A stretch of DNA of 27,610 nt from a virus (lineage: Duplodnaviria; Heunggongvirae; Uroviricota; Caudoviricetes). The notes below the pieces were generated by a model that worked only from the letters and a program-made list of their open reading frames with translations, searched no databases and was not told the origin of the DNA. Each line of letters opens with the position of its first letter. The first letter of the stretch is position 1. The DNA is taken from IMG/VR virus record IMGVR_UViG_2529292919_000027; one strand, written 5' to 3'. The translations under genes and the position numbers were made by a program. Positions 9,379-25,911 of this stretch are shown here, piece after piece.

Positions 9379-9599
9379 TCCGGAATATTTTCAAACGGTT
9401 TACCAATCATACTTTCCGTTGTCCTCGTCCGGGTCAGTGGTACACCACGCCTGCTGGGCATGTTCTACGTGTTAGCCTGGTTGACCGTGAATGTCAGAAG
9501 GTGGTTTGTGAACCGCTGGGCCGTAATTACCGCGTCAGTATGCCGCTTATAGCCTTTTGCTCCGGAAAAATGTTTAAGCGTCTGGGAGGTGTGGCGTGA
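9375..9599 (+). CDS. hypothetical small phage protein
   Basis: 74-aa ORF with ATGA overlap to upstream gene. Confidence 0.4.
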   Translation: MIRNIFKRFTNHTFRCPRPGQWYTTPAGHVLRVSLVDRECQKVVCEPLGRNYRVSMPLIAFCSGKMFKRLGGVA

Positions 9600-22677: not shown

Positions 22678-23211
22678 ATGAACGCAAAAATCAGATACGG
22701 CCTGTCGGCTGCCGTTCTGGCGCTGATTGGTGCAGGGGCGTCTGCGCCTGAAATCCTCGACCAGTTTCTTGACGAAAAAGAAGGTAACCACACCACGGCA
22801 TACCGTGATGGTGCGGGTATCTGGACCATCTGCCGCGGTGCCATCCTGGTGGATGGTAAACCTGTCGTCCCGGGCATGAAGTTGTCGAAGGAAAAATGCG
22901 ACCAGGTTAACGCCATTGAACGTGATAAGGCGCTGGCATGGGTGGAGAAAAACATCAGAGTGCCACTGACCGAACCCCAGAAAGCGGGGATTGCGTCATT
23001 CTGTCCGTACAACATTGGTCCTGGTAAGTGTTTCCCGTCGACGTTTTACAGACGAATTAATGCAGGTGATCGCAGGGGAGCGTGTGAGGCGATTCGCTGG
23101 TGGATTAAGGACGGTGGCAGAGACTGCCGTATTCGTTCAAACAACTGTTACGGTCAGGTATCCCGTCGTGACCAGGAGAGCGCGCTGGCGTGCTGGGGTA
23201 TCGACAGATAA
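22678..23211 (+). CDS. SAR endolysin (T4-lysozyme-like, GH24)
   Basis: N-terminal signal-anchor-release segment (GLSAAVLALIGAGASAP), catalytic region resembling R21/P1 Lyz. Confidence 0.8.
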   Translation: MNAKIRYGLSAAVLALIGAGASAPEILDQFLDEKEGNHTTAYRDGAGIWTICRGAILVDGKPVVPGMKLSKEKCDQVNAIERDKALAWVEKNIRVPLTEPQKAGIASFCPYNIGPGKCFPSTFYRRINAGDRRGACEAIRWWIKDGGRDCRIRSNNCYGQVSRRDQESALACWGIDR

Positions 23212-23299: not shown

Positions 23300-23340
23300 T
23301 AAAAACCCCGTTTGTTGGCACCAAGCGGGGTTTTGTGTTT
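23300..23340 (+). terminator. intrinsic terminator after endolysin
   Basis: ccccgtttg ... caagcgggg stem with T-rich tail; A-run upstream. Confidence 0.45.
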
Positions 23341-23367
23341 CTGACCTTGAGTAAGGCAAGGGAGAAC

Positions 23368-23550
23368 ATGGCGAAGTATAAACGAATTCTGTTGAGGTTG
23401 ACTATGAAAAATGGCCTTGAACTGAAAGCGCCTGTAACTGATGACATCAGCAGAGCACTGGCTTTTGCCATTAAGTGGGTGGCGGTCGGTGTTGCTGTGT
23501 CCCCGATGCTGTATGGGCTGGCAAAACTGGTCATTGCGTTGAAATCGTGA
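23368..23550 (+). CDS. small protein with C-terminal TM segment (60 aa)
   Basis: ATG after AGGGAG; hydrophobic C-terminus; lies between endolysin and Rz. Confidence 0.4.
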
Positions 23551-23564
23551 AGGGAGGATTAAGC

Positions 23565-23696
23565 ATGTCAGACAAACTCATAACGCTGGCGAAGATCCTC
23601 TGTGTAATTGTCGGCATTTCATTTTCACTAATGCTGGTTGCTCTTTTTCTTTCCATGGCCTGGATGATGTTGTCTTCGTCGGGGTTGCTGGGGTGA
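23565..23696 (+). CDS. small hydrophobic membrane peptide (43 aa)
   Basis: ATG after AGGGAGG; single TM; stop overlaps Rz start region. Confidence 0.4.
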
Positions 23697-23707
23697 ACAT
23701 AAACCGA

Positions 23708-24166
23708 ATGCTTTCCGCGTTTATCGTTATTCTGCTGGTGGCCTGTGGTGCGCTGTGGATGGCAACAGACCATTACCGTGATAACGCGATTACCTACAAA
23801 GCGCAGCGCGATAACAAAGCCAGTGAACTGAAGCTGGCGAACGCAACCATTACTGATATGCAGGTGCGCCAGCGCGATGTTGCTGCGCTCGATGCAAAAT
23901 ACTCGAGGGAATTATCCGATGCGAGAGCTGAAAATGAAACTCTGCGCGCTGATGTTGCCGCTGGTCGTAAGCGCCTGCGGATCAACGCCACCTGTCCAGG
24001 CTCCGTGCGTGAAGCCCCCACCACCTCCGGCGTGGATAATGCAACCGGCCCCCAACTGGCAGACACCGTTACACGGGATTATTTCACCCTCAGAGAGCGG
24101 CTGATGACGATGCACAAGCAACTGGAAGGGGCACAGGACTATATCCGCACTCAGTGCCTGAAATAA
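23708..24166 (+). CDS. Rz: Rz i-spanin
   Basis: N-terminal [17 protein letters not shown]...DVAAGR.RL motif matching Rz; ORF track 23693..24166. Confidence 0.8.
23919..24104 (+). CDS. Rz1: Rz1 o-spanin lipoprotein (embedded in Rz, +1 frame)
   Basis: Lipobox LVVSAC and [14 protein letters not shown] proline-rich motif as in lambda Rz1. Confidence 0.75.
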
Positions 24167-24516
24167 GTTTTGTTGATGCGCCGTATCGTCGCTGTATTCC
24201 CTCATTAACAGAGACCGCAGCCCGACAGGGAGACTCCTCTGCGCGAGTGTGCGGGGATAATCAAAAACGATACACACCGGGGTTTACCGCGTTAACGGAG
24301 CGCGGCGTTGTCCCCTCATAGTCGCCTGTCCGGTGCGATGGTGGAAGAAGCCGGATGTTTATCACTATTAATTGATGACACAGAAATGGATTCATTGAAT
24401 TTCAGCACGTTTTTGTATTCGTGTTATTGAACATCTGTTTATTTTACTTTTAACATATTGATAATAAAAAGAGCTGTAAATCTTTAGATGAGTCGATTTT
24501 GTCCGGGGAAGTTCAA

Positions 24517-24657
24517 ATGGATTTTATGCTGACGGTTTCTGGTGTGGTTATCCTGTCCATTGCTTATACTGCAGATAAATATGGCTGCCATTTGTTATCA
24601 CGTATTGGCGCTTATTGTTCGTTGATGCTGATTTTCTCGTCGCTTTTTTTTGAGTAA
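24517..24657 (+). CDS. possible small hydrophobic peptide (46 aa)
   Basis: ATG after GGGGA RBS; possible extended -10 TGATAAT upstream; AT-rich island. Confidence 0.25.
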   Translation: MDFMLTVSGVVILSIAYTADKYGCHLLSRIGAYCSLMLIFSSLFFE

Positions 24658-24789
24658 GTTATATTAATTATAACAAATAATTTTCTGTGTTATTTTTTCA
24701 GGCTATCCCGTCAGAGGGGAAGCCTGTACTGCCGGGGAGCGAATGGAAAACTGATGTGTCCGGTAACTGCGTGTTCTGTGAACACCATG

Positions 24790-24975
24790 TTACTTAATTA
24801 TGTAATTCATACCCGAACTCTCTGTTGACAGCCTTCTTCTGCAGGCTTCAATAACCCACGCTGAAAAGTTTCCTGAACCTTTCAGATCAAGAGCGATGTT
24901 AATTTGTTCAATCATCTGGTTTGGAAATCGGATGTTGCGGGTTGTTGTTCTGCGGGTTCTGTTCTTTGATGACAT
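24790..24975 (-). CDS. ribbon-helix-helix (CopG/Arc-like) DNA-binding protein
   Basis: Basic N-terminus, predicted beta-strand TRNIRFP then two helices; GGGGA RBS; palindromic site upstream. Confidence 0.5.
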   Translation of the reverse strand: MSSKNRTRRTTTRNIRFPNQMIEQINIALDLKGSGNFSAWVIEACRRRLSTESSGMNYIIK

Positions 24976-25037
24976 AATGTTTCCCCATATTCAGTGTTGC
25001 TGATTTGTATTATCTGAAGTTGCTTTTACGTTAATTT

Positions 25038-25080
25038 GACGCAGATCAATTAATACGATACCTGCGTCATAATTGATTAT
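25038..25080. promoter_or_regulatory. nested palindrome upstream of the RHH gene (candidate operator)
   Basis: gacgcag ... ctgcgtc and atcaattaat ... ataattgat inverted repeats. Confidence 0.3.
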
Positions 25081-25159
25081 TTCTCGTGGTTTGATGGCGT
25101 ACACACATGTTGTGATAAACCTTATATAGATGATAATCATTATCATTTCGTGGGTCCTT

Positions 25160-25360
25160 TCCGGCGATCCGACCGGTTACGGGGCGGCGACCTCGCGGGT
25201 TTTCGCTATTTATGAAAATTTTTAGGGAAAAATCAGATCCGTTCTTCTTCTTTTTAACTGTTTGATTATCAATAGAATTTTAAAAATATAAAAGGATCTG
25301 ACAAAGGCTGTTTTTGTTAGAAAACGCCATTTTCAGATCCTTTCTGGTTCCCGGGGGAGT
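25160..25360. promoter_or_regulatory. cos site: cosN (cohesive end GGGCGGCGACCT at about 25182-25193) and cosB-like repeats
   Basis: Sequence ccggcgatccgac.ggttacggggcggcgacctcgcgggttttcgctatttatgaaaattt matches the recalled lambda cos junction; cagatcc/ggatctg repeats downstream. Confidence 0.75.
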
Positions 25361-25362
25361 GT

Positions 25363-25911
25363 ATGAACGTCAATAAGAAAAAACTGGCCGATATTTTTGG
25401 CGTTGATGTCAGGACCATCACCGCCTGGCAGAGTCAGGGGTTACCACTTAGTTTCTGGTGGAGGGAAAGGGACTGAATCAGTTTTGATACAACTGCTGCC
25501 ATTCAGTGGTATGCGCAGAGGGAAGCTGATATTGAAAACGAAAAACTCCGTAAAGAGAGCGAGGATTTGAGGGCTGCCAGCGAATCAGACCTTCAGCCCG
25601 GCACCATTGATTACGAACGTTACCGACTGACGAAGGCACAGGCCGATGCACAGGAGCTGAAAAATGCTCGTGAGGAAGGCCTTGTCCTCGAGACGGAGTT
25701 ATTTACCTACATCTTTCAGCGAGTGGCACAGAATATATCAGGGATCCTTGTCCGTGTCCCTCAGACACTGCAGCGTAAATACCCTGATATATCACCCGCA
25801 CATCTTGATGCTGTGAAAACTGAAATCGCGAAAGCATCCGATGTGGCTTCTGAAGCCGGTGAGAATGTGCGCAGGTGGATTGATGATTTCAGACGAACTG
25901 AGGGCGGCTAA
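25363..25911 (+). pseudogene. nu1: terminase small subunit (Nu1-like) interrupted by a frame-shifted patch and in-frame TGA
   Basis: N-terminus [26 protein letters not shown] matches lambda Nu1; stop at 25474-25476; conserved GGGKG segment in +1 frame; frame restored before AAIQWYAQ. Confidence 0.65.

What the first reader, a model, noticed from the sequence alone, without database searches (positions are those of the whole stretch)
24300..25100. AT-rich island before cos with a ribbon-helix-helix gene and a hydrophobic peptide
The roughly 1-kb stretch between Rz and cos is much AT-richer than its flanks. It holds a leftward 61-aa RHH-type DNA-binding gene with a nested palindrome upstream (candidate autoregulatory operator) and a convergent 46-aa hydrophobic ORF with its own RBS and plausible promoter. 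This is the position lambda uses for bor-type cargo. An RHH regulator plus a small membrane peptide could be a regulator/toxin or exclusion module.
Basis: seen in the sequence. Interest (0 to 1): 0.55.

Follow-up and report, generated by a model that had tools for sequence, protein, structure and literature searches.

The report
Lambda-type prophage cargo slot beside cos
The AT-rich stretch before cos holds a very common but uncharacterised small prophage gene (ylcI/ynfO, also present in phage lambda), a short hydrophobic reading frame that may not be a real gene, and a strongly conserved palindrome; the first two are not a toxin/regulator pair.

Summary
Their meaning differs.

- **61-aa leftward ORF (24790-24975).** This is a YlcI/YnfO (DUF3950) protein, identical to RefSeq WP_001329960.1. 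It is under strong purifying selection (dN/dS about 0.06). Its DNA occurs in 77% of complete E. coli genomes and in lambda itself. An Arc-like ribbon-helix-helix fold is plausible but not demonstrated.
- **46-aa hydrophobic ORF (24517-24657).** This is an E. coli-only orphan (WP_000347013.1). An ORF this long arises in 47% of shuffles, its hydrophobicity largely follows from T-richness, and I found no significant coding constraint.
- **The two ORFs are not a module.** About 8% of ylcI copies sit beside the ORF, and one lineage carries the ORF cassette without ylcI. They are convergent, not co-transcribed.
- **Palindrome (25030-25078).** It is as conserved as cosQ/cosN. It is absent where the same YlcI sits next to HNH-type packaging genes, and present in a phage that lacks ylcI. 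It therefore travels with the lambda-type cos module and is unexplained.

Verdict: this is an ordinary, already catalogued cargo slot. Two things are mildly interesting: an unnamed, constrained lambda gene and the conserved palindrome.

The parts
24350..25350 (.). AT-rich island between the lysis cassette (Rz ends at 24166) and Nu1, spanning cos
   Evidence: GC 0.32-0.42 against 0.50-0.59 in the flanks
24177..24765 (+). Mobile AT-rich cassette that carries ORF46. It is found joined to three different packaging modules.
   Evidence: 94.8% identical in phage PPyecE_EH1910 and O157 prophages with HNH-type terminase. 91% identical in L057/L058, next to another TerL and with no ylcI. 77% identical in SHP24.
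24399..24427 (+). Candidate weak sigma-70 promoter for ORF46: ATTTCA-17-TGTTAT in the window, TTTTCA-17-TATTAT in O157 alleles, GTTTCA-17-GATAAT in SHP24
   Evidence: Scan hit in L004. The window allele falls below the scan threshold. Alignment. Inference only.
24517..24657 (+). 46-aa hydrophobic ORF (identical to WP_000347013.1, 'hypothetical protein'), with SD-like GGGGA at 24505-24509. Coding status is uncertain.
   Evidence: Annotated by PGAP. Only 13 protein clusters, all E. coli. ORF length and hydrophobicity are at chance level. 13 amino-acid changes from 24 substitutions against 14.7 expected, P = 0.27. AlphaFold predicts two helices, 2-22 and 24-44, pLDDT 74.
24763..24793 (.). Hairpin between the two convergent ORFs, overlapping the ylcI stop codon. 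Possible weak bidirectional terminator.
   Evidence: Inverted repeat I3. Terminator-like hit at 24771-24785 on the + strand.
24790..24975 (-). ylcI/ynfO-family gene (DUF3950), 61 aa, identical to WP_001329960.1. Residues 1-52 are the conserved core; the C-terminal tail is variable.
   Evidence: Pfam PF13132 67.5 bits against a cutoff of 25. NCBIfam NF041551 35.2 against 30. phrog_949. dN/dS 0.06 with dS 0.7-0.9.
24995..25112 (.). Conserved non-coding block upstream of ylcI and left of cos. An ORF called over it (24991-25146, - strand, phrog_9395) is probably spurious.
   Evidence: Alignments of 10-11 lambda-type sequences. The ORF has a 7-bp indel between lineages, nearly all its substitutions are non-synonymous, and one phage has an internal stop.
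25030..25078 (.). Imperfect nested palindrome (GTTAATT-TGACGCAG ... CTGCGTCA-T-AATTGAT), 104-152 bp left of the cosN nick
   Evidence: 4 of 49 variable columns, the same level as cosQ-cosN (2 of 30), against 17-24% in the flanks and 50% at ylcI third-codon positions.
25152..25193 (+). cosQ-like GGGTCCT (25152-25158) through the 12-nt cohesive end GGGCGGCGACCT (25182-25193)
   Evidence: Alignment with the lambda right and left ends. The cosQ position in lambda is from my own knowledge. The general layout of cos is from PMC4669245.

Best explanation
The island is the variable cargo slot that lambda-like prophages keep between the lysis genes and cos. It contains three separable things.

1. ylcI/ynfO. 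This is a conserved accessory gene found in lambdoid prophages and in lambda itself. It is read against the late operon. It most likely encodes a small dimeric Arc/Mnt-like ribbon-helix-helix DNA-binding protein made from the resident prophage. Its target is unknown. It also serves as a recombination joint: homology to HNH-type prophages stops exactly at its ATG, and homology to lambda starts inside its 3' part.
2. An AT-rich cassette of about 590 bp with a 46-aa hydrophobic ORF. The cassette moves independently between prophages. If translated, the ORF gives a two-helix membrane peptide (a moron), but translation is unproven.
3. A strongly conserved non-coding block with a 49-bp palindrome that travels with the lambda-type cos module. 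On the rightward RNA it forms a stable hairpin followed by a U-rich tract. My preferred guess is a cos-proximal cis element, for example a stop or insulator for rightward transcripts from the cargo slot before the terminase genes in the lysogen.

Shown: family membership, selection on ylcI, distribution, independence of the parts, and conservation of the palindrome. Inferred: RHH fold, DNA binding, expression state, and the roles of ORF46 and the palindrome.
For: ylcI:
- Family hits.
- dN/dS 0.06.
- Present in 4184 of 5426 E. coli genomes and in lambda, 434 and Stx phages.
- Transcribed in K-12 as part of a ybcW-ylcI convergent overlap, reported in PMC12288877.
- Listed as uncharacterised in PMC11551758.
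- Phage D2 lacks it.

RHH-like fold:
- hhalign of the DUF3950 profile against the Arc profile gives P = 0.0057 and aligns KNIRFP with FNLRWP.
- AlphaFold predicts an extended N-terminus followed by helices 19-32 and 34-55.
- Weak HicB-like PHROG hit, E = 0.012.

Variable slot: different genes occupy this position in lambda/DLP12, Qin, Chlobot/ev099 and this window.

Independence of the ORF46 cassette.

Palindrome: fold z = -5.0 on the + strand and conservation. It is absent from HNH-type contexts and present without ylcI in D2.
Against: - I found no convincing sigma-70 promoter for ylcI between its ATG and cos (my own reading of the sequence).
- The palindrome lies at about -55 to -103 from the ylcI ATG. 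That is where an operator could sit, so a YlcI-palindrome link in lambda-type phages is not excluded.
- The D2 record has NNNN at the joint, so it is weak evidence.
- The hairpin's U-tract is interrupted (UAAUUGAUUAUUU). The terminator scan did not call it.
- Only about three independent lineages underlie the conservation statistics.
Confidence: 0.55

Rival explanations
1. The first reader's module: YlcI is an RHH regulator or antitoxin that controls or neutralises the 46-aa membrane peptide (toxin or exclusion factor).
For: The two are adjacent in all 40 sampled E. coli genomes that carry the ORF46 segment. RHH proteins are common antitoxins, and there is a weak HicB-like hit. An 11-nt motif from the palindrome (ATCAATTAATA) recurs inverted at 24366-24376, upstream of ORF46.
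Against: - Only about 8% of ylcI places have ORF46 (788 against 9564).
- ORF46 occurs without ylcI in L057-L059.
- The genes are convergent, not an operon.
- The 11-mer match has E = 0.5 and is not conserved in the SHP24 allele.
- There are no toxin, antitoxin or defence family hits.
- ORF46 may not be coding.
Confidence: 0.07
2. ORF46 is a type I toxin-like small membrane peptide with a long 5' leader and a divergent or antisense RNA, independent of YlcI.
For: It is small and hydrophobic with an SD sequence. The most conserved part of the cassette is the leader at 24430-24475 rather than the ORF. A - strand promoter-like site (TTTACA-17-TATGTT, 24480-24452) lies inside that leader. This layout resembles tisB/istR and zorO/orzO (from my own knowledge).
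Against: - No Rfam match.
- Promoter-like sites are at shuffle frequency.
- I found no terminator for the putative RNA.
- The peptide has two short hydrophobic segments rather than one transmembrane helix with a charged tail.
- There is no significant coding constraint.
Confidence: 0.1
3. The ORF46 cassette is non-coding. The ORF is a by-product of T-rich sequence, and the cassette is a regulatory or structural DNA/RNA element, or simply AT-rich filler acquired by recombination.
For: - 47% of shuffles give an ORF as long.
- Chance ORFs here are hydrophobic.
- Amino-acid changes are at the random expectation, P = 0.27 and 0.59.
- Keeping the ORF open after 24 random substitutions has probability 0.38.
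- Frameshifted alleles are common in public data, for example P0002 with 46 members and P0010.
- There are no homologues outside E. coli.
Against: - The ATG, the SD-like GGGGA and the approximate stop are kept in three lineages down to 77% DNA identity.
- The C-terminal half (LLSRIGAYC.L.LIFSSLFF) changes only conservatively.
- Nei-Gojobori dN/dS is 0.27-0.31 in frame, against 0.55-0.79 out of frame.
Confidence: 0.35
4. YlcI acts at cos. It binds the conserved palindrome and modulates packaging, or protects or insulates cos in lysogens.
For: - ylcI sits immediately before the packaging module in both lambda-type and HNH-type prophages.
- The palindrome is as conserved as cosQ/cosN.
- One relative (P0206) is a DUF3950 fusion to a small-terminase HTH in a P4/PICI-like satellite.
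- cf-PICIs list YlcI/YnfO among their accessory genes, per PMC13612085.
Against: - Known cos functions need only about 200 bp (cosQ-cosN-I2-cosB), per PMC4669245.
- The palindrome was not found in phage records other than lambda-like ones (71 records).
- HNH-type prophages have YlcI without the palindrome.
- D2 has the palindrome without ylcI.
- Only a single fusion example was found.
Confidence: 0.12

Closest known systems
YlcI (DLP12) / YnfO (Qin) of E. coli K-12; Pfam DUF3950 (PF13132), NCBIfam NF041551
   Same: Same family by curated thresholds. The conserved core of residues 1-52 is the same. The position and orientation are the same: divergent from the small terminase gene across a cos region of about 388 bp.
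   Different: The C-terminal tail differs (STESSGMNYIIK here). The neighbour on the other side is ORF46 rather than ybcW/ybcV or ydfO. The family has no known function.
Unnamed lambda ORF at about 48100-48294 (complement), annotated 'hypothetical protein' in some lambda records
   Same: 81% identical protein. The upstream block, palindrome and cos are the same.
   Different: Lambda carries bor, ybcV-like and ybcW-like genes further left. The window carries the ORF46 cassette instead.
Arc and Mnt repressors of phage P22 (ribbon-helix-helix)
   Same: Similar size. Shared N-[IL]-R-[FW]-P strand motif followed by helix, G-x-x-N/S turn and helix, plus a basic N-terminal arm. Both are phage-borne.
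   Different: Similarity is below significance for homology. No ant-type target gene is nearby in this window. No operator has been identified. Dimerisation and DNA binding are untested.
Lambda bor/lom-type morons
   Same: Same slot in the late region, deviant base composition, and movement independent of the neighbours.
   Different: No homology to Bor. The promoter and terminator are not convincing. Translation of ORF46 is unproven.
Type I toxin-antitoxin loci (tisB/istR-1, zorO/orzO, hok/sok)
   Same: Small hydrophobic ORF with a conserved leader and a possible opposite-strand promoter within it.
   Different: No Rfam family match, no defined antisense RNA, and a different peptide architecture.

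Membership tests
YlcI/YnfO (DUF3950) | Pfam PF13132 and NCBIfam NF041551 scores above the curated cutoffs | tested here: met
   67.5 bits against 25. 35.2 bits against 30. Identical to WP_001329960.1.
YlcI/YnfO (DUF3950) | Lone opposite-strand gene between the lysis/cargo region and the packaging genes of a lambdoid prophage | tested here: met
   Same arrangement in lambda, DLP12, Qin, SHP24 and O157 prophages.
Ribbon-helix-helix (Arc/MetJ/CopG superfamily) | N-terminal beta-strand followed by two helices | tested here: inconclusive
   The AlphaFold monomer has an extended N-terminus and helices 19-32 and 34-55, pLDDT 66. The strand can form only in a dimer.
Ribbon-helix-helix (Arc/MetJ/CopG superfamily) | Significant sequence or structure similarity to a known RHH protein | tested here: inconclusive
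Ribbon-helix-helix (Arc/MetJ/CopG superfamily) | Homodimer that binds repeated DNA half-sites | not testable with these tools
   Needs a multimer model, EMSA or footprinting.
Type II toxin-antitoxin (RHH antitoxin + toxin) | Two co-directional genes in one operon that co-occur | tested here: not met
   The genes are convergent and 132 bp apart. 788 against 9564 places. ORF46 occurs without ylcI.
Type II toxin-antitoxin (RHH antitoxin + toxin) | The partner belongs to a known toxin family | tested here: not met
   No Pfam, PHROG, NCBIfam or PADLOC hit for ORF46.
Type I toxin-antitoxin | Small hydrophobic toxin ORF | tested here: inconclusive
   The ORF is present and hydrophobic, but both properties are at chance level for this sequence. 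There is no coding constraint.
Type I toxin-antitoxin | Antisense or divergent regulatory RNA | tested here: inconclusive
   There is a - strand promoter-like site at 24480-24452, but no terminator and no Rfam family.
Moron (promoter-ORF-terminator cargo in the late region) | Deviant composition and insertion independent of the neighbouring genes | tested here: met
   GC 0.34-0.40. The cassette is joined to three different packaging modules.
Moron (promoter-ORF-terminator cargo in the late region) | Own promoter and terminator; expressed in the lysogen | tested here: inconclusive
   Weak promoter candidate at 24399-24427. Weak hairpin at 24763-24793. Expression cannot be tested here.
Bor lipoprotein | Sequence homology to Bor | tested here: not met
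   No Pfam or PHROG hit for any ORF in the island other than DUF3950 and phrog_9395.

The most novel reading that the evidence does not exclude
Lambda and its relatives carry an unrecognised regulatory unit at the far right end of the genome. In this reading, an Arc-like protein (YlcI) has as its operator the near-invariant 49-bp palindrome 104-152 bp left of cosN. It controls leftward transcription from the cos region or shields cos and the terminase genes in the lysogen. ylcI copies in HNH-type prophages would then act in trans on lambda-type residents or incoming phages.
Probability: 0.12. Interest if true: 0.6.

Novelty: already known. Interest (0 to 1): 0.25.

Why it matters
Both ORFs are already in RefSeq, with identical sequences in hundreds of genomes, so the region does not reveal a new kind of system. 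Two points have modest value.

- Lambda carries an unnamed gene next to cos that is under very strong purifying selection (dN/dS about 0.06) and is present in most E. coli genomes, yet has no known function.
- Next to it is a palindrome as conserved as cosQ/cosN that lies outside the defined cos site.

Either could be tested cheaply in lambda. The analysis also warns that the hydrophobic ORF here is what T-rich DNA produces by chance, and that it should not be counted as a toxin without expression data.

Tried and rejected
- Rfam scan of 23900-25500 at E <= 1: only two chance-level hits.
- PDB sequence searches with the protein and with a profile: nothing relevant.
- PADLOC and NCBIfam: no defence or toxin family.
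- Search for a sequence shared between the ylcI upstream regions in lambda-type and HNH-type contexts: no shared 8-mer within about 290 bp and no palindrome. This argues against a gene-linked operator.
- An 11-mer shared between the palindrome and the ORF46 upstream region was rejected as chance (E = 0.5, not conserved in SHP24).
- The Nei-Gojobori/Fisher test suggested constraint on ORF46 (p = 0.009). A simulation using the observed transition bias and conditioned on an open frame removed the signal (P = 0.27). I trust the simulation.
- The ORF over the palindrome (phrog_9395, E = 1e-39) was rejected as a gene.
- Reading the interleaved repeats as a pseudoknot was rejected on loop lengths (my own reasoning). 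The nested hairpin is the better description.
- The tblastn hit in Pasteurella phage Pmp7 lies antisense to an annotated gene, so I set it aside.
- Literature searches for YlcI/YnfO/DUF3950 and for the RefSeq accessions found no functional study.
- Most 'homologues' in unrelated taxa are lambda control-DNA contamination.

Full report
**Context**

The window ends in the late region of a lambda-like E. coli prophage. It contains lysozyme (22678-23211), Rz with nested Rz1 (23693-24166), a lambda-type cos (cohesive end GGGCGGCGACCT at 25182-25193), then Nu1 and the large terminase. Window 24170-25190 is 100% identical to prophages in several complete E. coli genomes. RefSeq annotates two genes there: a 46-aa 'hypothetical protein' WP_000347013.1 and a 'YlcI/YnfO family protein' WP_001329960.1.

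**The observation**

GC falls to 0.32-0.42 over about 24350-25350, against 0.50-0.59 on either side.
- the 61-aa leftward ORF at 24790-24975;
- the 46-aa rightward ORF at 24517-24657, with GGGGA 7 nt before its ATG;
- the palindrome at 25030-25078.

**The 61-aa gene**

It matches Pfam DUF3950 (E = 9e-19, 67.5 bits against a cutoff of 25), NCBIfam YlcI_YnfO_N, and phrog_949, which has unknown function.

Over the conserved first 52 codons I compared the window with lambda, DLP12, Qin, an O157 prophage and strain SHP24.
- dN is 0.05-0.07 and dS is 0.7-0.9, so dN/dS is about 0.06.
- Among ten lambda-type sequences, 26 of 52 third-codon positions vary, against 5 and 4 of 52 first and second positions.

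This is a real gene under strong constraint.

It is also very common.
- Its DNA is found at 9564 places in 4184 of 5426 complete E. coli genomes, with up to 12 copies per genome.
- It is found in lambda, 434 and many Stx phages.
- In lambda it is an unnamed ORF just left of cos.
- K-12 has two copies, ylcI (DLP12) and ynfO (Qin). Each is divergent from the small terminase gene across about 388 bp.

The literature held here has no functional study. ynfO is listed among uncharacterised genes (PMC11551758). ylcI is reported only as one half of a convergent transcriptional overlap with ybcW in K-12 RNA-seq (PMC12288877), which does show that it is transcribed from a cryptic prophage.

**Is it ribbon-helix-helix?**

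The evidence points that way but does not prove it.
- The sequence has the expected pattern: a basic arm, then NIRFP, a helix, the turn GSGNFS, and a second helix.
- A DUF3950 profile aligned to an Arc profile places KNIRFP on FNLRWP. P = 0.0057, but the hhalign probability is only 6.5%.
- Alignments to the single Arc and Mnt sequences give the same register without significance.
- The AlphaFold monomer model has an extended N-terminus and helices 19-32 and 34-55, with pLDDT 66.

I regard an Arc-like fold as likely but undemonstrated.

**The 46-aa ORF**

The protein search found 13 clusters, all from E. coli and all at least 84% identical. Several are frameshifted variants. Two phage records carry it. 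No family library has it. The DNA segment is in 734 of 5426 genomes.

I found three lineages:
- the window and O157 type;
- L057-L059, 91% DNA identity with 4-5 amino-acid changes;
- SHP24, 77% DNA identity, 45 aa, 13 amino-acid changes.

The start codon, the GGGGA motif and the approximate stop are kept in all three lineages. The tests for coding are nevertheless weak.
- An ATG ORF of at least 46 aa occurs in 47% of dinucleotide shuffles of the 451-nt segment.
- The + strand is 38% T, so chance ORFs are hydrophobic (mean GRAVY 0.56). 8.5% of them reach the observed 1.11.
- The ORF would stay open after 24 random substitutions with probability 0.38.
- 13 amino-acid changes from 24 substitutions is close to the 14.7 expected under no selection (P = 0.27).
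- A simpler Nei-Gojobori comparison gave dN/dS of 0.3, against 0.55-0.79 out of frame. I give it less weight than the simulation.
- AlphaFold predicts two helices, which is what a hydrophobic sequence would give in any case.

I put the chance that this ORF is translated at about one half.

**Are the two ORFs a module?**

No.
- Only about 8% of ylcI copies have the ORF46 segment next to them.
- In lambda and DLP12 the neighbours are ybcW, ybcV and bor. In Qin they are ydfO through cspI. In Chlobot, PhiR42_1 and ev099 a ybcV-like gene follows directly.
- In the other direction, L057-L059 carry the ORF46 cassette joined to a different terminase with no DUF3950 gene at all.
- The two ORFs are convergent and cannot share a promoter.

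The cassette (about 24177-24765) is therefore an independent piece of cargo, and ylcI is a conserved anchor of the slot.

ylcI also sits at mosaic joints. Homology to the HNH-type phage PPyecE_EH1910 and O157 prophages ends exactly at the ylcI ATG. Homology to lambda begins inside the gene at 24841.

**The palindrome**

On the + strand, 25030-25078 folds into a nested hairpin of about 18 pairs (-15.3 kcal/mol, z = -5.0). The - strand is weaker (z = -3.4).

Variable columns across ten lambda-type sequences:

| Segment | Variable columns |
|---|---|
| Palindrome (25030-25078) | 4 of 49 |
| cosQ-cosN | 2 of 30 |
| Flanking non-coding segments | 17-24% |
| ylcI third-codon positions | 26 of 52 |

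The palindrome against third-codon positions gives Fisher p = 3e-6. The caveat is that only about three independent lineages are involved.

An ORF is called over this block in some records (phrog_9395, E = 1e-39). It is probably spurious, for three reasons:
- there is a 7-bp indel between lineages;
- nearly all its substitutions are non-synonymous;
- one phage has an internal stop.

The constraint is therefore on the nucleotide sequence itself.

The block belongs to the lambda-type cos module rather than to ylcI.
- Prophages with essentially the same YlcI next to HNH/HK97-type packaging genes have no trace of it and no other palindrome.
- Phage D2 keeps it without ylcI, although that record has NNNN at the joint.
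- It lies outside the roughly 200-bp cos defined genetically (PMC4669245).
- A DNA search of phage records (blastn, 'distant' mode) found the ylcI-upstream segment 24976-25140 that holds the palindrome only in lambda-like records (71 records).

Its function is unknown. The hairpin is followed by a U-rich stretch on the rightward RNA. I therefore favour a transcriptional stop or insulator ahead of the terminase genes, but a YlcI operator in lambda-type phages is not excluded.

**Comparison with known systems**

By every curated test the gene is a YlcI/YnfO family member. It resembles Arc and Mnt in pattern only. The pair fails the defining features of a type II toxin-antitoxin system: it is not an operon, the genes do not co-occur consistently, and there is no known toxin family. 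A type I toxin reading of ORF46 cannot be excluded, but it has no positive support beyond a promoter-like site at chance frequency.

**Verdict**

The regulator/toxin interpretation is not supported. The region is ordinary and already catalogued. The residual interest lies in a strongly constrained, unnamed lambda gene and an unexplained conserved palindrome next to cos.

Noticed in passing
window 25363-25911 (indels near 25448 and 25481): Nu1 (small terminase) differs from the intact allele in an otherwise 99% identical prophage by one extra T and one missing T, 33 nt apart. The shifted stretch contains a stop after codon 37. Either the packaging gene is inactivated or these are homopolymer sequencing errors.
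   Followed up: partly
window 24991-25146 (- strand): A 51-aa ORF matches phrog_9395 at E = 1e-39, but it lies over the conserved non-coding block. Lineages differ by a 7-bp indel, nearly all substitutions are non-synonymous, and one phage has an internal stop. This PHROG family looks like an annotation artefact.
   Followed up: yes
window 23335-23550 and 23565-23696 (+ strand): Two small ORFs are inserted between the lysozyme gene and Rz. The second (43 aa, [43 protein letters not shown]) has a clear single hydrophobic segment. RefSeq annotates both as hypothetical in the matching prophage.
   Followed up: no
loci L016-L055 (genome-contig scan) and many ENA contigs of about 3.5 kb: Most DUF3950 'homologues' in unrelated taxa (Kitasatospora, Cohnella, Pseudomonas, Flavobacterium and others) sit on contigs of about 3.5 kb or 48.5 kb and are about 90% identical to the query, as the lambda protein is. 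They look like lambda control or spike-in DNA. Error-laden copies inflate the apparent diversity of the family in protein databases.
   Followed up: partly
L009 4714-5103: A 129-aa protein joins a DUF3950 domain to the HTH of a Terminase_2 small subunit. It is the only opposite-strand gene between the integrase and the primase operon of a P4/PICI-like element. This is a possible hint of a link to packaging-site recognition, but it is a single example.
   Followed up: partly
L008 3757-4458 (Qin); L062, L065, L066 (Chlobot, PhiR42_1, ev099): In several relatives ylcI/ynfO is followed on the same strand, 42-58 bp away, by a DUF1398 gene (ybcV/ydfO). This suggests a two-gene leftward operon. The window lacks this partner.
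   Followed up: no
window 24841 and 24975: Mosaic joints fall on ylcI. Homology to HNH-type prophages ends exactly at its start codon, and homology to lambda begins inside its 3' part. The gene may act as a shared recombination linker between modules.
   Followed up: partly
L051 4998-5476 (Rouxiella sp.): A 60%-identical DUF3950 copy lies outside any obvious prophage, directly after cytochrome bd-type oxidase genes. About 110 bp further on there is a 61-aa ORF with one hydrophobic segment.
   Followed up: no
window 24430-24475: Within the ORF46 cassette the best conserved stretch is not the ORF. It is the leader sequence CTGTTTATTTTACTTTTAACATATTGATAATAAAAAG, which is nearly identical at 77% overall DNA identity. 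Its role is unknown.
   Followed up: partly
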